Shown here piece by piece: positions 3,559-43,449 of a stretch of DNA of 64,000 nt (the stretch's first letter is position 1; each line of letters opens with the position of its first letter). Below the pieces are notes generated by a model, which saw only the letters and a program-made list of their open reading frames with translations, was not told where the DNA came from and ran no database searches. The DNA is from a virus: the IMG/VR virus record IMGVR_UViG_3300040811_000687. The stretch is one strand, 5' to 3'. Both the position numbers and the translations under genes were made by a program.

Positions 3559-3996
3559 ATGAGTGAGAATACAGAAATTCAAGTACGATTAGCAGAATTA
3601 ACCAAAGATGTCAAACAGGTTAATAATATTCAAAATAGACTTGATACTGCTATTGACAAACTAACAGATGTTTCTACACACATTAAATCTATGTTGGCCG
3701 TACACGAGGAGAAGATTGAACACCAGGAAAAGATAGATGATGTGATATTCTCCAAGCTAAAGATAAGAGCCAGTGAGACGATAAGTATAGAAAAAGAACT
3801 TTCCGATAAGATACAGGAATCTGAAAAACGTATAAGGGAAGAGTTACTTGAACTAAAAGGCGAATTCCGTGGTAGAATTAGTCTATTAGAAAAGTACAAG
3901 TGGATTATCATAGGTGCTTTCATAGCCGTTGAATTTATTACAGTTTTAATGGTATCCAAAAAAGGTATGTTACCACTCTTTGCCATTTTCAAATAA
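3559..3996 (+). CDS. Coiled-coil protein with C-terminal TM anchor, upstream of primase
   Basis: Heptad pattern; KWIIIGAFIAVEF TM segment. Confidence 0.75.
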   Translation: MSENTEIQVRLAELTKDVKQVNNIQNRLDTAIDKLTDVSTHIKSMLAVHEEKIEHQEKIDDVIFSKLKIRASETISIEKELSDKIQESEKRIREELLELKGEFRGRISLLEKYKWIIIGAFIAVEFITVLMVSKKGMLPLFAIFK

Positions 3997-4089
3997 AATC
4001 GCTTCTCCAGGACTAGAATAAGTAGGTCCGTGAATAAGCGCAGGAAACCTCGGTGCTATTTTTTACGCTGGAAAGTCGCTCAAATAAGC

Positions 4090-4118
4090 TTGACTATTTG
4101 ATATAAATGGTGTATAGT
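4090..4118 (+). promoter_or_regulatory. Sigma70-type promoter
   Basis: TTGACT-17 nt-TATAGT upstream of primase. Confidence 0.75.
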
Positions 4119-34124: not shown

Positions 34125-34655
34125 ATGGCAATAAGCATATTAGATACACTGGTTGATAAGTCAGATGGTGCTGTTAAGTCAGCGTCATGGTACAGAAAAG
34201 CAGTAGGTTCTATAGCAGACAGAATAACAGCAAATAAACTAATGAGACAAGGTAAACTTATTGGTAGACCAAGTGTTGGTAGATTAAACATGTTTGTATA
34301 TGACCCTAAATATAAGCAGACATTACCATATTACGACACTTTTCCTTTAGTGTTGCCGTTAGAGCCAATCAAAGGTGGTTTTGCAGGTATTAATTTTCAT
34401 TATCTGCCACCAAACCAAAGATTTACTCTATTGACACAATTGCAGAGATTTGCCGTACAAGGTAACAAAGTAAATGAGACTAATAGATTTGATGTAAGTT
34501 ACAGTAGAGTTAAAAGACTACCATTAACAAAAAATGCTATTAAAAAGTATTTGTGGGCACACACTAGAAGTAATTATTTAAGAGTTGATTACGATGAGGC
34601 TGCCTTAGCAGTATATTTACCAGTAGCACAATTTAAGAAGGGAAGACCATACTAA
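34125..34655 (+). CDS. gp2: DNA end protector gp2
   Basis: YDPKYKQTLPYYDTFPLV, GINFHYL. Confidence 0.9.
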   Translation: MAISILDTLVDKSDGAVKSASWYRKAVGSIADRITANKLMRQGKLIGRPSVGRLNMFVYDPKYKQTLPYYDTFPLVLPLEPIKGGFAGINFHYLPPNQRFTLLTQLQRFAVQGNKVNETNRFDVSYSRVKRLPLTKNAIKKYLWAHTRSNYLRVDYDEAALAVYLPVAQFKKGRPY

Positions 34656-35635
34656 TGGCAATATTAAGAGGCGGAAAAAGAATTGGTGGTTTTGATATCA
34701 GAATTGGTATACCACGAGACAGATCACTAGACAATGTAACAGGTGATCCAAGATTAAAACGTACACAAGGTGGTAATCCTGAGTCTACAATGGGTAGAGT
34801 ACAGGCAATGGTAAATGAGGCAGAGGGTTTTGCTCGTAAGGCAAGATTTTATGTTGAGTTTATGTTGCCTAAATCACTAGGTGGTGGACCAGATGGTACT
34901 CCAGGCTCAGTGTCTTCACCAATGGTAGATGAAACCTATGATTCATTTTACACACAATCAAAATTAAATCAGGTACATATAGCAAACGGTAGACGTGTAC
35001 AAGCATTTTGTAGTGCTATTGAAATGCCTGATAGAGAAATTATTACTAAAGAAGTTAGACATGGTAACACACCAGTTAGACATGTTGCATATGATTTTAA
35101 ATCACAAGAGATCACAGCAACTTTCTATGCAGACAAATTTATGAGAGAAAGATCATACTTTGAAATGTGGCAAGGCGCCGCTTTTAGTACTAAATCTTTT
35201 AACATGAATTACTATAAGAACTATGTAACAGATATGAGAATATATCAATTAGGTTCATTTGAGTCATCACAAGAGAGAGACGAAATAACCTATGGTGTAC
35301 AACTATTTGATTGTTTACCAACATCAATTAGTAAAGTAGAATATTCGCATGATGAAAATACAGTACAGACATTTTCAGTTACATTTAAATTTATGTATTG
35401 GATTAATTTCTTTTTAGATAATCAAGGCAACATAGAACTTGGTCAATCTAAATTTGGAAAACCATCAGTGAAACAAGATTCAGGTTTATTAGGTGGTTTA
35501 CTAGGTAAACTACCACCAGAATTGAGACGAGCAGGTAGAGACGTGTTGAACAAGTTGAGACGTAGAGTACCACTAGGTAAAATTACCGGTGGTAGAGCGT
35601 TCCCACCTTTCAAACTACCACCTATAAATATATAA
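34655..35635 (+). CDS. gp54: Tail tube-like baseplate initiator (gp54/gp19 fold)
   Basis: GFARKARFYV, FCSAIEMP, TFYAD..ERSYFEMW, LPTSI; synteny. Confidence 0.7.
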   Translation: MAILRGGKRIGGFDIRIGIPRDRSLDNVTGDPRLKRTQGGNPESTMGRVQAMVNEAEGFARKARFYVEFMLPKSLGGGPDGTPGSVSSPMVDETYDSFYTQSKLNQVHIANGRRVQAFCSAIEMPDREIITKEVRHGNTPVRHVAYDFKSQEITATFYADKFMRERSYFEMWQGAAFSTKSFNMNYYKNYVTDMRIYQLGSFESSQERDEITYGVQLFDCLPTSISKVEYSHDENTVQTFSVTFKFMYWINFFLDNQGNIELGQSKFGKPSVKQDSGLLGGLLGKLPPELRRAGRDVLNKLRRRVPLGKITGGRAFPPFKLPPINI

Positions 35636-35653
35636 TAACAAGGAGATAATATT

Positions 35654-36388
35654 ATGGCATTACCGATAATAGAAACACCAACTTATGAGTTGACACTTCC
35701 TTCCCAAGACGAGATAGTAAAATACAGACCTTTCCTTGTTAAAGAAGAAAAATTAATGTTAATAGCTCTTGAGTCAGGTGAAGAAAAAGAAATAAACATG
35801 GCGACTAAAACAATTTTAGACGCATGTACATTTAACAAACTAAAGATAGAAGAATTACCAACATTTGATATAGAATACATGTTCTTACAAATAAGAGCAA
35901 AGTCAGTTGGTGAAGTAACTAAATTCAAAGTTATTTGTCCAGACGACAAAAAAACATACACTGATATTGAGATAGACTTATCAAAAGTTGAGGTGCAAGT
36001 TGATGATGAACATACGAACAAAGTAGTAATTGATGAACAAAGGCAATTGGGTGTTGTTCTCAAATATCCTACGATGTCCATGATGACTAATACACAAATA
36101 CAGTCAGCAGACTATGACACAGCATTTGATATGATGGTCGGTTGTATACACGAAATCTTTGAAGGAGAGAAAGTGTATCCTGGAGTAGATAGTACAAGAG
36201 AAGAATTAAAAGATTTTTTAGAGAAGTTACCACAAGGTGCTTTTGATAAAATTAAAAAGTTTTTTGACACTATGCCTAGATTGAGACACGAGCAAGAAGT
36301 TACAAATCCAAAGACAGGTGTTAAAAGTACAGTTACATTTAGCGGATTACAAGATTTTTTCGGATTGGCCTCACCCATAGTAGCCTAG
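35654..36388 (+). CDS. gp26: Baseplate hub assembly protein gp26
   Basis: ALP..PTYELTLPS..YRPFLVKEEK, FLQIRAKSVGE, FFDTMP, GLQDFF; late promoter at 35623. Confidence 0.92.
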   Translation: MALPIIETPTYELTLPSQDEIVKYRPFLVKEEKLMLIALESGEEKEINMATKTILDACTFNKLKIEELPTFDIEYMFLQIRAKSVGEVTKFKVICPDDKKTYTDIEIDLSKVEVQVDDEHTNKVVIDEQRQLGVVLKYPTMSMMTNTQIQSADYDTAFDMMVGCIHEIFEGEKVYPGVDSTREELKDFLEKLPQGAFDKIKKFFDTMPRLRHEQEVTNPKTGVKSTVTFSGLQDFFGLASPIVA

Positions 36389-36546
36389 AGGCATATTTTG
36401 AAGTTAATTTTGCGTTAATGCAACACCATAAATATGGTATAACAGAAATTGAACAGATGATTCCGTGGGAACGAGATATATATGTTTCAATGTTAATTAA
36501 TTATATAAAAGAAGAAAACGAAAAAAGACAAAGGGAGAAACAGTAA
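36355..36546 (+). CDS. gp51: gp51-like baseplate hub assembly catalyst, -1 frame relative to gp26 (first ATG 36418)
   Basis: NFALMQHHKY..EIEQMIPWERDIY; not in ORF track. Confidence 0.85.
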   Translation, partial: FFRIGLTHSSLEAYFEVNFALMQHHKYGITEIEQMIPWERDIYVSMLINYIKEENEKRQREKQ

Positions 36547-36842
36547 TGAATACTGAAACAAAAAAAGTAAATTTAGAATTAGAGATTGACACTAATACTG
36601 TTGACTCTAGTAAAAACAGATATCAAGGTTTAATTGACCTTGCAAAAGCAATAGACAGTTGGAGAATATTTCCAAGAGTATTCATATCAACATACATTTT
36701 TTTACTATACAAAGTAGTAATATGGTATATGAACTTACAGGCACCTACTATGGAACAAAGTGGGTTAGTATCAATAGTTGTTGGTGCTGGCGCTGCCTGG
36801 TTTGGTTTATATACAGGAAGTAGAGCAAAATCAACTAAATAG
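36546..36842 (+). CDS. Small 2-TM membrane protein (holin-like candidate)
   Basis: WRIFPR, two TM helices. Confidence 0.65.
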   Translation: MNTETKKVNLELEIDTNTVDSSKNRYQGLIDLAKAIDSWRIFPRVFISTYIFLLYKVVIWYMNLQAPTMEQSGLVSIVVGAGAAWFGLYTGSRAKSTK

Positions 36843-36847
36843 TATAT

Positions 36848-38215
36848 ATGGCATTACCAAGTTTAGATACAACAGCAAATGATCAAACTATATCAGCAAT
36901 TGATAAGTTAGGCAAGGCAATAATGGAAAAGGCATCCATGTCAATACAAGGTGCTACAAAGGCCATTGTACCTAGTATACCTAAAATGATTAATCAGTTG
37001 ACAGAGGATTTAGCAAAAGGTCCTGTTCATAGTTTTGGTAAAGTGATCAGAAAATTAGAGAACATGGTAGAGACATTAGGTCTTGATTTAAGATCATATA
37101 ACAATGACTTGGCTGATATGTTACAAGAAAGAGAACAACAGGCTCGTAAGTCAGAGGATACAGTACAAAAGTTAAGACAACAAAATATTGTTGCACGTGT
37201 TAATAAAGATACAAAAGAAGTTGAGATATTAACCAGATCACAAATTAGACAAGAAAAAAAGTTAATAGAAAAGAAAGAGAAAACAATCAAACTTTTAGAA
37301 AAAGAAATCAGACTAGACACTAGAAATTTACAACAAAAAAATAATCTTTCTCCAAGAGAGAAAGGTGACACAAAGAAAAGAATAGAAGCAAATGCTTTAA
37401 AATTAGATAAGTTGACAGCTGAAAGAGACGAACAAGCAAATGATGTAACAGTTGACACAGGTAGAACTGAAAAAGGTCTACCAATGTTTTTAGAAATGAT
37501 GAAAGATGGTTTTCTAGAACCATTTAGAGCAATTGGTGAATCTTTTAACATGATGAAAGATATGGGAAAAGGCACTGCTGATCTATTTAATTTCTTATCA
37601 GGTGGATTATTTCTTAAAGCATTTAAGGGTATCACTAAAGGTTTAAAAGCAATTAGTGGTTTCTTTACATTGGCTAGACTAGTATTAGTTGCTAAATTTG
37701 CATTGGTCATTGGTGCTATAACATTTGTAGCAGCTAAGATCAATAAGATCAAAGACTTCTTTGCTGGCATAATAGATTATTTTAGAAATTCAAAACTTGG
37801 TAAATTATTAGGTCTATCAAAAGAAACACCTGAAGAAAAAGAAAGTAGAAAAATTGAGAATAAAAATAGAGGCACATCTATGGTTGATATAGATAGTCAC
37901 TATGATAGTTTTCCAACTATTTCAAATGCAAAAGAAGAAAATAAAAATACTATTGTAGGTGCTAGTGATAATGTTAGTAAAATGACTAATGAGAAAATAT
38001 TTAACAGTAAAGCAACACAGAATGACGCCGTTAAAGAATTTGATAAGCTAACAAAAGAGGCTAATTCTCAAATGAGCAAAGGTAATGTAATAATTAATAA
38101 TGCACCAACAAGTGTACAGACAAATAATAGTGGTTCAGTGACTTCAGGTTTTACCAATAATAATCCAGACGAGACGATTACAAATACATCTAGAGCTAGA
38201 TGGTCTAATATGTAA
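36848..38215 (+). CDS. Helical tail protein, tape-measure/gp29-like
   Basis: Coiled coil with hydrophobic middle, C-terminal VIINNAP; lies between gp51 and gp48; late promoter ACTAAATA at 36834. Confidence 0.55.
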   Translation: MALPSLDTTANDQTISAIDKLGKAIMEKASMSIQGATKAIVPSIPKMINQLTEDLAKGPVHSFGKVIRKLENMVETLGLDLRSYNNDLADMLQEREQQARKSEDTVQKLRQQNIVARVNKDTKEVEILTRSQIRQEKKLIEKKEKTIKLLEKEIRLDTRNLQQKNNLSPREKGDTKKRIEANALKLDKLTAERDEQANDVTVDTGRTEKGLPMFLEMMKDGFLEPFRAIGESFNMMKDMGKGTADLFNFLSGGLFLKAFKGITKGLKAISGFFTLARLVLVAKFALVIGAITFVAAKINKIKDFFAGIIDYFRNSKLGKLLGLSKETPEEKESRKIENKNRGTSMVDIDSHYDSFPTISNAKEENKNTIVGASDNVSKMTNEKIFNSKATQNDAVKEFDKLTKEANSQMSKGNVIINNAPTSVQTNNSGSVTSGFTNNNPDETITNTSRARWSNM

Positions 38216-38644
38216 TTAAGATAAATCTTTTTCAGTTATAATTTTAAATTCAGCACCTTGATCTTTACAGTATTTGGTAGCGGCTTGCCATTTAGCTTTA
38301 TTTCGTATATATTCTAATGACTCACGCATGTAAGACTTGGTCTTTCTGCTAGTTGGTTTTTTAGGTGGCACACATTGACGTGATGGTTTAATTTCTATTA
38401 CTAACTTACTGCCTGTTTTGGTCTTTACAATGAAGTCTGGAAAATATCTGTGCCATTTGTTGTCAATAGGACTATAATATCTAATTGGTAACTCCTCACT
38501 TGCCCAATGGTCTATATTATCACTTTTATCCAAATACACCATCATACGTCTTTCTAATAGTGAACGGTATATAATGTTATTTGGATCACCAACATACTTG
38601 CTGGGGTTGATTGGTTTATATATTCCCTTAAAAGATTTCTTCAT
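38216..38644 (-). CDS. gp4: Head completion nuclease gp4 (start revised to MKKSFKG)
   Basis: NPSKYVGD, YRSLLE, WASEE, HRYFPDF, EIKP, ITEKDL. Confidence 0.92.
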   Translation of the reverse strand: MKKSFKGIYKPINPSKYVGDPNNIIYRSLLERRMMVYLDKSDNIDHWASEELPIRYYSPIDNKWHRYFPDFIVKTKTGSKLVIEIKPSRQCVPPKKPTSRKTKSYMRESLEYIRNKAKWQAATKYCKDQGAEFKIITEKDLS

Positions 38645-40355: not shown

Positions 40356-41846
40356 ATGTACAATCAAATAAATGCTGATACACTAACAAGAGCAGGCCAA
40401 TTTGCCTTATCAGACATACAATTAATATCTTATCAATCTTCCGATGGCGGCAGTGAGCCAAAAAAGGTAAGTGTACGATCACTAGTGCTTGAGATAAACA
40501 TTTACGAAGATATATTTTCAAAAGGTCTATCAGGTAATGTTGTATTACTTGACGGTCAAAATCTTACCAACCACTTACCACTTACAGGCTTTGAACGTAT
40601 AGAATTTAAACTGAATACACCAGGTATTGCAAAAGGTTTTGATTTCACGGCTACAACAGGTCACCCGATGTACATATACAAAATATCAGGTAGACAAGAG
40701 GCAACACCAAGAACGCAGATGTACGTATTACACTTTGCTTCTAAAGAGATATTAACAAACGAAACAAAGAAAATTTATAGATCAATGTCAGGCACCATAG
40801 ATGATATGGTCTTGGACGTTTTTAGAACTGATTTAGAATCAAAAAAGACATTAATACTAGAAGAAACAAAAGGCATACGTAAATACGTGCCAGTAGGTGA
40901 AAGACCATTTGATTTCATAGAAGGATTATCCAAGTCTGCCGAGTCGGCGAGATACAATAATAGTGGTATGTATTTCTATGAAGACAGTACAGGTTTTAGA
41001 TTTAGAAGTTTAGAAAATATGTTGGCGATTACAGATGGCGCTGCTAGACCAGTGGTCGCAAGATTTGAAAAGAAACCTAGATCAATTAAAGGTGGTACAG
41101 GTATTACCAATATCATACAAGAAATGCAAACAGTTGATGGTTTCACAATAGACAACCAGTTTGACACAATAAAGAATTTAAGAAATGGTGTTTACGCAAG
41201 TAGAACAATCAGCCATGATATGTTTAACAAGACATACACTAATTTTGATTATGATTACAATCTAGAGTTTGAGAATATATTTCATACTGAACATGATGGT
41301 AATGGTGGTAAAACAGATAACAAGTCAATTGCACCATTAATTAATTATCATGGTAAACAATTTAGTGATTTCGCAGATACAGCATTATATCTACAATCAA
41401 CAACAACCAATACACATGATAATTTTGAAGATGAACCAAAAGGCACAAACATGGCCAAAAGACTTGCACAAAGAATGGCTTTCGCTGCTGGCCAGGTATC
41501 ATTAACAGCAAGAGGTTTTACTGGATTGTCCGTTGGTGATGTAGTTGCACTAGAGATTCCGGCATACGAACCTGCCGGTGTAGACAACCCTCTAGATAAT
41601 GATCCGTACATGTCTGGACGCTACCTGGTTAAGTCCATACGACATAAAATAGACACAGCTAAAGATATGCACACAATGGCCATTAATACCATGAAGGACG
41701 CAGTAAGGGTCGCATATCCAGAGGAGAGTATAGATACATTTACAGGTAGAGAAAACGCAGAGGCCACCAACATATTACAATACGATTTAGACGACATGTT
41801 AATAACAGAGGCAAGCAAAGGAGACAACGATGGTATACTCTCATAG
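40356..41846 (+). CDS. Baseplate hub / tail protein (gp27-like)
   Basis: IYEDIF..LPLTGFE, FYED..GFRFRSL, SGRYLV; lies between gp53 and gp5. Confidence 0.7.
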   Translation: MYNQINADTLTRAGQFALSDIQLISYQSSDGGSEPKKVSVRSLVLEINIYEDIFSKGLSGNVVLLDGQNLTNHLPLTGFERIEFKLNTPGIAKGFDFTATTGHPMYIYKISGRQEATPRTQMYVLHFASKEILTNETKKIYRSMSGTIDDMVLDVFRTDLESKKTLILEETKGIRKYVPVGERPFDFIEGLSKSAESARYNNSGMYFYEDSTGFRFRSLENMLAITDGAARPVVARFEKKPRSIKGGTGITNIIQEMQTVDGFTIDNQFDTIKNLRNGVYASRTISHDMFNKTYTNFDYDYNLEFENIFHTEHDGNGGKTDNKSIAPLINYHGKQFSDFADTALYLQSTTTNTHDNFEDEPKGTNMAKRLAQRMAFAAGQVSLTARGFTGLSVGDVVALEIPAYEPAGVDNPLDNDPYMSGRYLVKSIRHKIDTAKDMHTMAINTMKDAVRVAYPEESIDTFTGRENAEATNILQYDLDDMLITEASKGDNDGILS

Positions 41847-42300: not shown

Positions 42301-43449
42301 ATGGCAAGATTTATAGGAAAGAATACAGATTTTACATGGTTTTCAGGTGTAGTAGAAGACAGACATGACCCTCTCTTTGCTGGCCGTTTAAGAGTTAGAT
42401 GTTTAGGTTTTCATACAGACAACAAGAGTGAGTTACCTACAGAGGACTTACCATGGGCTATGTGTGTGTTATCAACGGCCTCACCAGGTATTTCTGGTCT
42501 TGGCCAATCTCCTTCTTTTCTTGTTGAGGGTAGTTGGGTGTGGGGATACTTTCGGGACTCTGGCCACCAAGAGCCAGTGATTATTGGTTCTTTACCTGGT
42601 AAACCCTATGATCTTGGCAATCCTAATAAAGGATTTAGTGATCCAAATCGTAGGTCGGAGGATGAGGAGGAAGAAGAATACAATCAATCAGTTTATCCTA
42701 AGGAGACAGGTGAGGTAGATACCAATAGATTGGCCGTTAATGATAGTGAGAAAGAACATACTTCGTTGACTACACGTAAGGCCGATAGAGAAAACAATTT
42801 GGATATACCAACGGCAGACTTTGATACAATAACGGCAGCCGATGGATCAAGTATAATCGCAAGTGATTCGGACACCTGGTCACAGCCGGTCATCCCTTAC
42901 TCGGCCGTTTATCCATATAATCATGTGTTTGAGAGTGAACAAGGCCATATCAAAGAATACGATGATTCATGGGAATATGATGAGTACACAAACGAATACC
43001 ACTATTACACACGTATACACGAAAGACACAAAAGTGGTACAGGTTATGAAATAGATAACAGTGGTAATATTGTAAAGTTGGTAAAGGCCAGCAGTTACGA
43101 AATAATTGACGGTGACCACTATGTAAATATCAAACAGGACTCCGACATTACCATTAATGGCCGTCATAAGATATTCATTAACAAAGATGGCTTTGAAAAT
43201 AACCATTACGACATACACGTAGGTGCCAACGCCAATATTAATATACAAGTAGACACAGGCGATATCAATATGGTTACCAAAGGTGGCCGTATCAATGTGA
43301 ACGCAGGCGGTGATTATAATGTTAAAGTAGGTGGTAATTACACATTATCAGTAGATGGTAATAAACAAGAAGATGTAGCAGGTTCTAAAACATCAAACAC
43401 AACAGGCGCAGTAGTACATAGAGGGGCTACAATAGATTTAAATCCGTAG
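42301..43449 (+). CDS. gp5: Baseplate central spike gp5 (OB-fold plus beta-helix, no lysozyme domain)
   Basis: GVVEDRHDP..GRLRVRCLGFH, DLPWA, YPYNHVFESE.GH, C-terminal IDLNP. Confidence 0.92.
   Translation: MARFIGKNTDFTWFSGVVEDRHDPLFAGRLRVRCLGFHTDNKSELPTEDLPWAMCVLSTASPGISGLGQSPSFLVEGSWVWGYFRDSGHQEPVIIGSLPGKPYDLGNPNKGFSDPNRRSEDEEEEEYNQSVYPKETGEVDTNRLAVNDSEKEHTSLTTRKADRENNLDIPTADFDTITAADGSSIIASDSDTWSQPVIPYSAVYPYNHVFESEQGHIKEYDDSWEYDEYTNEYHYYTRIHERHKSGTGYEIDNSGNIVKLVKASSYEIIDGDHYVNIKQDSDITINGRHKIFINKDGFENNHYDIHVGANANINIQVDTGDINMVTKGGRINVNAGGDYNVKVGGNYTLSVDGNKQEDVAGSKTSNTTGAVVHRGATIDLNP

What the first reader, a model, noticed from the sequence alone, without database searches (positions are those of the whole stretch)
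36353..36546. Programmed -1 frameshift signal fusing gp26 to gp51
Seen: gp26 reads GAT TTT TTC (slippery T-TTT-TTC, 36355-36361). A GCCTC/GAGGC stem starts 6 nt downstream. The -1 frame runs without stops (RIGLTHSSLEAYFEVNFALMQHHKY...) into gp51, whose first ATG has no clear SD and falls inside the NFALMQHH motif. Known: tail assembly chaperones (lambda G/GT) use such frameshifts upstream of the tape measure. Inference: gp26/gp26-51 is the G/GT equivalent here, with a tape-measure-like gene at 36848.
Basis: partly seen in the sequence, partly recalled or inferred. Interest (0 to 1): 0.7.

Follow-up and report, generated by a model that had tools for sequence, protein, structure and literature searches.

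The report
Frameshift in phage tail-chaperone gene
One tail-assembly gene of this marine T4-like phage very probably makes a short and a long protein because some ribosomes slip back one base on a TTTTTTC run, a trick already described for tail chaperone genes and, it seems, for T4-like phages.

Summary
The gp26 homologue (35654-36388, Pfam PF12322) reads GAT TTT TTC, so the heptamer T_TTT_TTC lies at 36355-36361. The -1 frame is open from 36343 to 36546. A GCCUC/GAGGC stem starts 6 nt downstream.

The heptamer, its register and the -1 phase are kept in 157 of 157 complete environmental relatives and in 10 of 11 distant phage records. The -1 peptide is conserved from the slip site on, upstream of any start codon. 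The predicted 297-aa fusion is colinear with T4 gp51. T4 gp51 is itself a gp26 paralogue with this C-terminal extension. T4 carries two PF12322 genes; four other phages checked carry one. The N-terminal domain of gp26 is modelled like the three solved tail assembly chaperones.

The lambda G/GT reading is therefore supported. The tape-measure identity of 36848-38215 rests only on gene position and weak feature matches.

This is not new. Vladimirov et al. 2022 (Virology 566:9) was not held here. Two citing papers credit it with naming gp26/gp51 as T4-like tail chaperones and with poly-T -1 signals in their genes. This scan has also noted the same frameshift 299 times, in at least 269 other genomes. 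No experiment was found. Verdict: a real, unannotated member of a known kind.

The parts
35623..35630 (+). TATAAATA, a T4-type late-promoter-like motif just upstream of the gp26 homologue
   Evidence: Read. The consensus TATAAATA for T4-type late promoters is quoted in a passage of PMC3121705. Function was not tested here.
35654..36388 (+). gp26 homologue, the short tail assembly chaperone form (TAC-N, 244 aa). It has the Shine-Dalgarno sequence AAGGAG and a 0-frame stop TAG at 36386-36388.
36355..36361 (+). Slippery heptamer T_TTT_TTC (codons GAT TTT TTC). tRNA-Phe in the P and A sites can re-pair one base back.
   Evidence: Kept in register in 157 of 157 complete IMG/VR relatives: 148 TTTTTTC, 7 TTTTTTA, 2 TTTTTTT. 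Also kept in 10 of 11 distant phage records. The third base of the preceding codon is T in 33 of 33 sequences although the residue varies D/S/N/T.
36362..36367 (+). 6-nt spacer GGATTG between the heptamer and the stem
   Evidence: In 69 of 92 unique relatives the longest helix starts 4-9 nt after the heptamer.
36368..36392 (+). Candidate stimulatory hairpin GCCUC / 15-nt loop / GAGGC inside a G+C-rich island
   Evidence: Centroid structure (-8.2 kcal/mol, z -0.5, so not significant alone). Both arms are invariant in 53 unique sequences of this clade. Other clades have different stems at the same spacing. The 40 nt after the heptamer fold at a mean of -9.9 kcal/mol against -2.9 to -4.6 in control windows.
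36361..36546 (+). -1 frame extension read after the slip: 61 codons (RIGLTHSSLEAYFEVNFALMQHH...REKQ) plus the TAA stop. With residues 1-236 it gives a 297-aa long form (TAC-NC).
   Evidence: phrog_634 2.4e-28 for the 67-aa stop-to-stop frame (3.4e-27 for the 61 aa from 36361), against 8.8e-18 for the 42-aa ORF; phrog_150 profile 229-276 of 282. hhalign to T4 gp51 residues 206-243, E 4.1e-5. Entropy by codon position of the -1 frame is 0.39/0.36/1.03 upstream of the ATG. The model has pLDDT 82.6 and helix 1 lies upstream of the ATG.
36418..36546 (+). The 42-aa ORF that database records call 'gp51 / baseplate hub assembly catalyst'. It is the tail of the extension, not a gene of its own.
   Evidence: No Shine-Dalgarno sequence. 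The ATG is replaced by Leu, Ile or Val codons in many relatives; 34 of 87 loci have no ATG/GTG/TTG before codon 26 after the slip.
34655..35635 (+). Tail-tube-family gene upstream (gp54-like tube initiator)
   Evidence: phrog_45 'tail tube' 2.6e-31; weak Pfam Phage_T4_gp19. The Mosig homologue is annotated as baseplate tail tube initiator.
36546..36842 (+). 98-aa hydrophobic ORF of unknown function between the chaperone gene and the tape-measure candidate
   Evidence: phrog_10198 7.6e-22, function unknown. No Pfam family.
36848..38215 (+). 455-aa candidate tape measure protein (positional counterpart of T4 gp29)
   Evidence: It lies between 'gp51' and gp48 as gp29 does in T4. Coiled-coil-like and hydrophobic stretches are visible. 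Among the nearest feature-based clusters are two named tape measure, one with PF25671 T4_Tape_measure, both score 0.93. There is no family hit and no BLAST similarity to gp29.

Best explanation
Proposed mechanism. The gene at 35654 is the tail assembly chaperone (TAC) gene of a T4-like phage. Most ribosomes read it in frame and stop at the TAG (36386-88). This gives a 244-aa short form, equivalent to T4 gp26 and lambda gpG. A minority pause with tRNA-Phe on UUU (P site) and UUC (A site) of U_UUU_UUC, probably held up by the G+C-rich hairpin that starts 6 nt downstream. Both tRNAs re-pair one base back. Translation then continues in the -1 frame from CGG (36361) for 61 codons to the TAA at 36544. 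The result is a 297-aa long form, equivalent to T4 gp51 and lambda gpGT, whose extra three-helix domain is the piece annotated as 'gp51'.

Inferred function. By analogy with lambda G/GT, many copies of the short form and a few of the long form would coat the tape measure protein (candidate: 36848-38215). The C-terminal domain would recruit tube or hub subunits. Neither form would end up in the virion.

Shown here: the heptamer, its register and phase; its conservation; coding selection in the -1 frame upstream of the ATG; colinearity with T4 gp51; and a TAC-like model of the N-terminal domain.

Inferred only: that ribosomes really slip, at what rate, that the hairpin stimulates the slip, and what the two forms bind.
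For: 1. Conservation of the signal.
- Of 80 IMG/VR loci at 64-100% protein identity, 78 have T_TTT_TTC and 2 have T_TTT_TTT in register, and all have the -1 ORF.
- Of 80 cyanophage-type loci, 3 are cut before the gene end. Of the other 77, 70 have TTTTTTC and 7 have TTTTTTA.
- L005 is identical to the window and L089 is the P-HM1 genome, so the independent count is lower: 53 and 57 unique sequences.
- Ten of 11 distant phage records keep the signal: Pelagibacter Mosig, ACG-2014j, P-TIM68, P-HM1, Ralstonia RSP15, Stenotrophomonas Moby, Vibrio D486, Paraglaciecola GD1, Citrobacter Ci1 and Variovorax V45v66.

2. Selection acts on the nucleotides, not the residues. Residue 234 varies (D/S/N/T) but its third base is T in 33 of 33 sequences. 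F235 is TTT in 33 of 33. Other invariant Phe codons are TTC in 1-15 of 33, and invariant Asp/Asn codons end in C in 8-10 of 33.

3. The -1 frame codes upstream of the ATG. Entropy by codon position is 0.39/0.36/1.03 between the 0-frame stop and the ATG. The first possible start codon wanders, and 34 of 87 loci have none before codon 26. The PHROG score rises from 8.8e-18 to 2.4e-28 when the upstream part is included.

4. Colinearity with T4.
- T4 gp51 residues 1-201 match PF12322 (3.9e-52), as gp26 does.
- On phrog_150 (282 positions), T4 gp51 covers 13-280, T4 gp26 covers 14-235, the window's gp26 covers 5-234 and its -1 peptide covers 229-276.
- hhalign places the -1 peptide profile on gp51 residues 206-243 (E 4.1e-5) and the gp26 profile on gp51 residues 15-172 (E 1.7e-5).
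- T4 has 2 PF12322 genes; Mosig, RSP15, Moby and D486 have 1 each.

6. Stimulator. The 40 nt after the heptamer fold at a mean of -9.9 kcal/mol (z -1.83), against -2.9 to -4.6 (z -0.1 to -0.4) for three control windows in 86 unique sequences. In 69 of 92 unique sequences the longest helix starts 4-9 nt downstream, and stem sequences differ between clades.

7. Literature. Citing passages say poly-T -1 signals are known in TAC-N genes of T4-like phages (PMC12846349) and that some T4-like phages use a short gene plus a long fused gene instead (PMC10274946).
Against: - No protein evidence of any kind exists here. Neither the fusion nor its ratio has been seen.
- The window's own stem is no better than shuffles (z -0.5 to 0). 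Part of the low MFE is simply local G+C content.
- The invariance of the arms within this clade is confounded by two overlapping reading frames, so only about one free position (GAG, never GAA) speaks for RNA pairing.
- The loci are related to each other, so the counts are not independent events.
- One relative, Vibrio phage K476, has no canonical heptamer (ACG CTT TTT GCG TAA). It may start its small ORF independently.
- A 98-aa ORF separates the chaperone gene from the tape-measure candidate, unlike the lambda layout.
- U_UUU_UUC is not among the heptamers I recall as most efficient in E. coli.
Confidence: 0.87

Rival explanations
1. Transcriptional slippage. RNA polymerase stutters on the T6 run and adds one U to a fraction of the mRNAs. 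Ordinary in-frame translation of those mRNAs then gives the same 297-aa fusion.
For: The conserved element is a homopolymeric T run. The title of Vladimirov et al. [quoted passage not shown] However, the PRFect passage explains that phrase as the two-gene solution.
Against: - The run has 6 T in 155 of 157 loci and 7 T in 2. From memory, efficient bacterial slippage needs about 8-9.
- If length were what mattered, longer runs would be expected. Instead the run is kept short and in a fixed codon register, and a hairpin follows at ribosomal-frameshift spacing.
- Contigs from 4 metatranscriptome libraries of 4 studies cross the site with no inserted or deleted letter. Contigs drop rare variants and may derive from DNA, so this is weak evidence.
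Confidence: 0.06
2. Two separate proteins. gp26 stops at the TAG, and the small 'gp51' ORF is translated on its own from the ATG at 36418, or by re-initiation after the gp26 stop. This is how all database records annotate it.
For: - Records annotate two CDSs in Mosig, P-TIM68, P-HM1, RSP15, Moby, D486, GD1, Ci1 and K476.
- In RSP15, Moby and D486 an ATG lies 3 codons after the slip site.
- K476 has no canonical heptamer.
Against: - There is no Shine-Dalgarno sequence before 36418.
- The 19 codons upstream of the ATG are conserved as protein.
- Those codons form helix 1 of the modelled domain.
- The Met is replaced by Leu, Ile or Val in many relatives; 34 of 87 loci have no start codon before codon 26.
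- This reading does not explain why the T run is kept at synonymous and non-synonymous sites, nor why the small ORF is always in the -1 phase.
- In T4 the same peptide is the C-terminus of a full-length gp26 paralogue.
Confidence: 0.05
3. Chance or artefact. The heptamer and the open -1 frame are a coincidence, or an assembly indel has split a single gene.
For: TTTTTTC is common in this A+T-rich window: 48 hits against 39.7 expected.
Against: The same arrangement is found in 157 of 157 complete environmental loci and in 10 of 11 distant isolates sequenced independently. RNA-library contigs from four studies carry the identical sequence.
Confidence: 0.01

Closest known systems
Phage T4 gp26 (208 aa) and gp51 (249 aa), named as the tail assembly chaperones of T4-like phages by Vladimirov, Gautam & Davidson, Virology 566:9-15, 2022. 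The paper was not held; I saw only its title in reference lists and two citing passages.
   Same: Same protein family (PF12322, phrog_150). The short form corresponds to gp26. The long form is colinear with gp51, including the C-terminal FYxxNxxL...YSL...MIPxER motif. The genes lie in the same baseplate-hub neighbourhood.
   Different: T4 makes the two forms from two diverged paralogous genes on opposite strands, 20% identical over 161 residues. This phage has a single gene plus a -1 slip. Four relatives checked also carry a single PF12322 gene; the window's own genome is not held and could not be searched.
Lambda gpG/gpGT and the conserved -1 frameshift of tail assembly chaperone genes (Xu, Hendrix & Duda 2004, recalled). 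I read a passage of the review PMC5009743.
   Same: A short product and a -1-extended product come from one gene. [quoted passage not shown] The gene sits after a tube-family gene and before the tape-measure candidate. The N-terminal fold is TAC-like.
   Different: The heptamer is U_UUU_UUC, not lambda's G_GGA_AAG (recalled). The short form is much larger (244 aa). A 98-aa ORF intervenes before the tape-measure candidate. There is no sequence similarity. The review passage states that the frameshift is conserved 'except T4'.
HK97 gp13 (PDB 2OB9), YqbN (3KLU) and Rbstp2171 (3FGX), the three solved tail assembly chaperone structures (passage of PMC9603447 citing Pell et al. 2013)
   Different: Sequence identity is 6-11%. 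Foldseek does not find them at a significant E-value. The window's protein has about 150 more residues that match no known fold.
Vandenendeviridae / Andersonviridae TAC locus with a -1 frameshift on GTTTTT (Pseudomonas phage Adele paper, PMC12846349; passages read)
   Same: A myovirus TAC-N gene has a poly-T slip site near its 3' end. The downstream 'hypothetical' ORF is really the C-terminal part of TAC-NC. The case is argued from conservation of the -1 frame, as here.
   Different: A different protein family and a different motif. Homology to the window's gene was not tested.

Membership tests
Tail assembly chaperone gene with programmed -1 frameshift (lambda G/GT type) | Two overlapping ORFs, the second in the -1 frame, with an X_XXY_YYZ heptamer in the overlap | tested here: met
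   T_TTT_TTC at 36355-36361 lies inside the 46-nt overlap 36343-36388. It is conserved in 157 of 157 complete loci and in 10 of 11 distant records.
Tail assembly chaperone gene with programmed -1 frameshift (lambda G/GT type) | Position between the tail tube gene and the tape measure gene | tested here: inconclusive
   A tube-family gene lies directly upstream (phrog_45). Downstream there is first a 98-aa ORF and then a 455-aa protein. That protein is a tape-measure candidate only by position and by feature leads.
Tail assembly chaperone gene with programmed -1 frameshift (lambda G/GT type) | TAC fold as in HK97 gp13 (2OB9) | tested here: met
Tail assembly chaperone gene with programmed -1 frameshift (lambda G/GT type) | Two proteins actually made, in a fixed low ratio of long to short | not testable with these tools
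   This needs mass spectrometry, western blot or a reporter assay.
Tail assembly chaperone gene with programmed -1 frameshift (lambda G/GT type) | The short part binds the tape measure and the C-terminal domain binds the tube subunit; both are absent from virions | not tested
T4 gp26/gp51 family (Pfam PF12322 T4_baseplate; phrog_150 / phrog_634) | Match to PF12322 above the curated cut-off | tested here: met
   219.2 bits against a cut-off of 24.5, E 6.9e-65.
T4 gp26/gp51 family (Pfam PF12322 T4_baseplate; phrog_150 / phrog_634) | The long form carries the gp51 C-terminal extension | tested here: met
   The -1 peptide hits phrog_634 at 2.4e-28 and phrog_150 positions 229-276 at 1.7e-6. hhalign places it on T4 gp51 residues 206-243, E 4.1e-5.
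T4 gp26/gp51 family (Pfam PF12322 T4_baseplate; phrog_150 / phrog_634) | Short and long forms encoded by two separate full-length genes, as in T4 | tested here: inconclusive
   In the window only one ORF was given to Pfam and matched PF12322, and its long form needs the -1 slip; the other ORFs of the window were not scanned. The window's own genome is not held, so a second copy elsewhere could not be excluded. T4 has 2 copies; four relatives have 1 each.
dnaX-type -1 frameshift (upstream Shine-Dalgarno-like stimulator plus downstream hairpin) | Shine-Dalgarno-like element about 10 nt upstream of the heptamer | tested here: inconclusive
   Only the GG of the conserved Gly231 codon lies 12-14 nt upstream. 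There is no consistent GGAG or AGGA. A downstream hairpin at 4-9 nt is present in 69 of 92 unique sequences.
Transcriptional slippage (realignment on long A/T runs) | A homopolymer long enough for polymerase slippage, and heterogeneous run length in RNA | tested here: inconclusive
   The run is 6 T, or 7 T in 2 of 157 loci. RNA-library contigs of 4 runs show no indel, but contigs cannot show rare variants.

The most novel reading that the evidence does not exclude
The single-gene -1 frameshift on U_UUU_UUN is the ancestral and almost universal way that the whole T4 superfamily makes its two tail chaperone forms. Here it was seen in pelagiphage-type and cyanophage-type environmental loci, a 253-kb Vibrio phage, Citrobacter phage Ci1 (Straboviridae), and the RSP15, Moby and Variovorax lineages. 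T4's two divergent genes 26 and 51 would then be a late duplication that replaced recoding. The stimulatory hairpin has been rebuilt with different sequences and loop sizes in different clades while keeping its 4-9 nt spacing. If the 2022 paper, which I could not read, did not document this breadth and the hairpin turnover, those two points would be new. They would offer a natural experiment on why the short:long ratio matters.
Probability: 0.3. Interest if true: 0.5.

Novelty: new member of a known kind. Interest (0 to 1): 0.3.

Why it matters
- Annotation. All ten of the non-T4 records I opened that carry annotation either list the 3' piece as a separate small gene ('baseplate hub assembly catalyst' or 'hypothetical protein') or leave it out. 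None marks a ribosomal slippage. The eleventh record is unannotated. As a result the long chaperone form is missing from protein databases for most T4-like phages.

- Biology. The finding ties the long-unexplained 'catalytic' T4 protein gp51 to the general G/GT logic of tail-length control. It also removes the textbook exception 'except T4' (PMC5009743). This point already appears to be in print (Vladimirov et al. 2022, seen through citing passages).

- What is still missing anywhere I searched is an experiment showing the slip and its rate.

Tried and rejected
- Literature. Searches on gp26/gp51/frameshift, cyanophage/frameshift/baseplate hub, gp51/gp26/tail assembly chaperone, 'baseplate hub assembly catalyst'/frameshift and 'programmed ribosomal frameshift'/baseplate hub found nothing on this locus. 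So did 'TAC-NC'/gp51. The relevant paper surfaced only through the PRFect preprint. It is not held under its DOI or PubMed id. Four further citing papers gave only the reference, or a generic mention of tail assembly chaperones.

- Pairwise BLAST. BLASTP of T4 gp51 against the 67-aa -1 peptide gave no alignment. Profile methods were needed.

- Complex prediction. Complex prediction (gp26 with the 455-aa protein) was not available, so no binding test was made.

- Tape measure. There is no Pfam or PHROG family and no BLAST similarity to T4 gp29 for 36848-38215. Its 41 sequence relatives carry no informative name.

- Database scans. IMG/VR scans with the Vibrio D486 and Ralstonia RSP15 proteins returned no new relatives. 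The window's own assembly is not held, so the copy number of PF12322 in its whole genome could not be checked.

- Covariation. A single consensus covariation test of the hairpin was not attempted. The 3' arm sits at different distances in different clades (i+j registers 29, 31, 38, 41, read), so the pairs are not homologous across clades.

- RNA contigs. They cannot show rare slippage products, start sites or expression level.

Full report
**What is there**

The window carries a T4-type baseplate-hub gene block on the + strand:
- DNA end protector (34125-34655)
- a tube-family gene (34655-35635, phrog_45)
- a gp26 homologue (35654-36388; Pfam PF12322 6.9e-65; phrog_150 1.5e-70)
- the small ORF that databases call gp51 (36418-36546; phrog_634 8.8e-18)
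- a 98-aa ORF
- a 455-aa ORF
- gp48, gp53, a tail protein (40356-41846, phrog_350), and gp5

The closest cultured relative by DNA and by protein is Pelagibacter phage Mosig (68% DNA identity, 56% protein identity).

**The observation**

The gp26 frame reads GAT TTT TTC, so T_TTT_TTC lies at 36355-36361 in X_XXY_YYZ register. The -1 frame opens at 36343 and runs to 36546. The heptamer therefore sits inside a 46-nt zone where a change of frame is possible. After a 6-nt spacer, GCCUC (36368-72) pairs with GAGGC (36388-92). The ATG at 36418 has no Shine-Dalgarno sequence, unlike the starts of gp26 and of the next ORF.

In one A+T-rich genome the heptamer alone is only suggestive: the window has 48 copies on both strands against 39.7 expected. 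The stem alone is not better than shuffles (z -0.5).

- Of 80 IMG/VR loci found with the window's gp26 (64-100% identity; one is identical to the window), 78 have T_TTT_TTC and 2 have T_TTT_TTT in register. All have the -1 ORF.
- Of 80 loci found with cyanophage P-HM1 gp26 (41-100% identity to it; one is P-HM1 itself), 3 are cut before the gene end. Of the other 77, 70 have TTTTTTC and 7 have TTTTTTA.
- Of 11 non-T4 phage records opened, 10 keep T_TTT_TT(C/T) and the -1 phase: Mosig, ACG-2014j, P-TIM68, P-HM1, Ralstonia RSP15, Stenotrophomonas Moby, the 253-kb Vibrio phage D486, Paraglaciecola GD virus 1, Citrobacter Ci1 and Variovorax V45v66. Vibrio phage K476 does not.

The selection is on nucleotides. 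In 33 diverse sequences the residue before the run is D, S, N or T, yet its third base is always T. The first Phe codon is always TTT. Other invariant Phe codons use TTC in 1-15 of 33 sequences, and invariant Asp/Asn codons end in C in 8-10 of 33.

**The -1 frame is a coding frame upstream of the ATG**

- Across 53 unique sequences of the window's clade, variability between the 0-frame stop and the ATG peaks at the third position of -1-frame codons (0.39/0.36/1.03). Upstream of the heptamer it peaks at the third position of the 0 frame (0.47/0.36/1.25).
- The peptide RI(G/A/S)L.H..LE..F..NFAL is conserved from the first codon after the slip.
- The position of the first possible start codon wanders. 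Of 87 loci, 43 have the ATG at codon 20, and 34 have no ATG, GTG or TTG before codon 26.
- Including the upstream part raises the phrog_634 match from 8.8e-18 to 2.4e-28.
- An AlphaFold2 model of the 61 residues has pLDDT 82.6 and three helices (2-22, 27-31, 35-60). The first helix lies almost wholly upstream of the ATG.

**Relation to T4**

- In T4, genes 26 and 51 lie on opposite strands.
- Both products match PF12322: gp26 over residues 1-206 and gp51 over 1-201. They are 20% identical over 161 residues.
- On the 282-position profile phrog_150, T4 gp51 covers 13-280, T4 gp26 covers 14-235, the window's gp26 covers 5-234 and its -1 peptide covers 229-276.
- hhalign puts the -1 peptide profile on gp51 residues 206-243 (E 4.1e-5) and the gp26 profile on gp51 residues 15-172 (E 1.7e-5).
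- T4 has two PF12322 genes. Mosig, RSP15, Moby and D486 have one each.

The 297-aa slip product (236 + 61 residues) is therefore the counterpart of gp51, and the 244-aa product is the counterpart of gp26.

**Chaperone fold**

**Stimulator**

- In 86 unique sequences the 40 nt after the heptamer fold at a mean of -9.9 kcal/mol (z -1.83). Three control windows of the same loci give -2.9 to -4.6 (z -0.1 to -0.4).
- In 69 of 92 unique sequences the longest helix begins 4-9 nt after the heptamer. There are many different stems, for example GCCUC/GAGGC, GCCCUC/GAGGGC, GGGCUCUC/GAGAGCCU, GGACUAUC/GAUAGUCU and ACUCUUCCA/UGGAAGGGU, with loops of 4-15 nt.
- In the window the stem lies in a 57% G+C island.

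The feature is real at the family level but weak for this one sequence.

**RNA**

Contigs of four metatranscriptome libraries from four studies cross the slip site without any change or indel. This shows presence in RNA libraries and a majority T6 form. It shows nothing about rare slippage products.

**Tape measure**

The 455-aa protein has no family match and no similarity to T4 gp29. It sits where gp29 sits, before gp48. Among its nearest feature-based clusters are two named tape measure, one carrying PF25671 (both score 0.93). These are leads only.

**What is known**

A 2016 review states that G-T frameshifting is conserved among long-tailed phages 'except T4' (passage of PMC5009743). Vladimirov, Gautam & Davidson (Virology 2022) is not held. 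The PRFect preprint says of it that some T4-like phages carry a short gene and a long fused gene instead of frameshifting (PMC10274946). The phage Adele paper cites it for poly-T -1 signals in TAC-N genes of T4-like phages (PMC12846349). The kind is thus in print.

This scan has also noted the same thing 299 times, in at least 269 other genomes. One of those notes says that no paper reports it. My reading of the citing passages contradicts that.

**Verdict**

This is a real, conserved, unannotated programmed -1 frameshift in the tail assembly chaperone gene of a T4-like marine phage. It is a new member of a known kind. Protein-level proof is still lacking.

Noticed in passing
window 38216-38641 (- strand): A stand-alone TnsA-like endonuclease N-terminal domain ORF (PF08722, E 1.5e-21) lies on the opposite strand, wedged between the tape-measure candidate and gp48. 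It looks like an inserted mobile or homing endonuclease gene.
   Followed up: partly
window 35623-35630: TATAAATA, the T4-type late promoter consensus, lies directly upstream of the gp26 homologue and overlaps the end of the preceding gene.
   Followed up: no
L172 (Vibrio phage K476) 1390-1430: This is the only relative examined without a canonical heptamer. The gp26 homologue ends ACG CTT TTT GCG TAA and the -1 ORF opens only 16 nt before the stop. This lineage may use a non-canonical slip or independent initiation.
   Followed up: partly
L158, L159, L160, L162, L166, L167, L168 (IMG/VR cyanophage-type loci): Seven of 77 loci use T_TTT_TTA, so the 0-frame residue is Leu instead of Phe. Some of them have strong 7-8 bp hairpins 5 nt downstream, with compensatory differences between loci (GGGCUCUC/GAGAGCCU against GGACUAUC/GAUAGUCU).
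   Followed up: partly
window 36546-36842: A 98-aa hydrophobic ORF (phrog_10198, function unknown) lies between the chaperone gene and the tape-measure candidate. In RNA-library contigs, 36656-36831 shows by far the highest summed depth and many variant letters (up to 211 in run X3). It may be a conserved stretch shared by many related phages.
   Followed up: no
window 42301-43449: The gp5 homologue (382 aa) matches only the Gp5 OB domain and C-terminal repeat families in Pfam, with no lysozyme domain hit. In relatives, the large gene after the chaperone locus carries muralytic annotations (peptidase M15 in P-HM1, lysozyme-like in Moby).
   Followed up: no
L085 (T4) 3803-4090: The T4 record annotates an internal in-frame product 26' (the C-terminal 95 residues of gp26) beside gp26. 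T4 may therefore make three products of this family.
   Followed up: no
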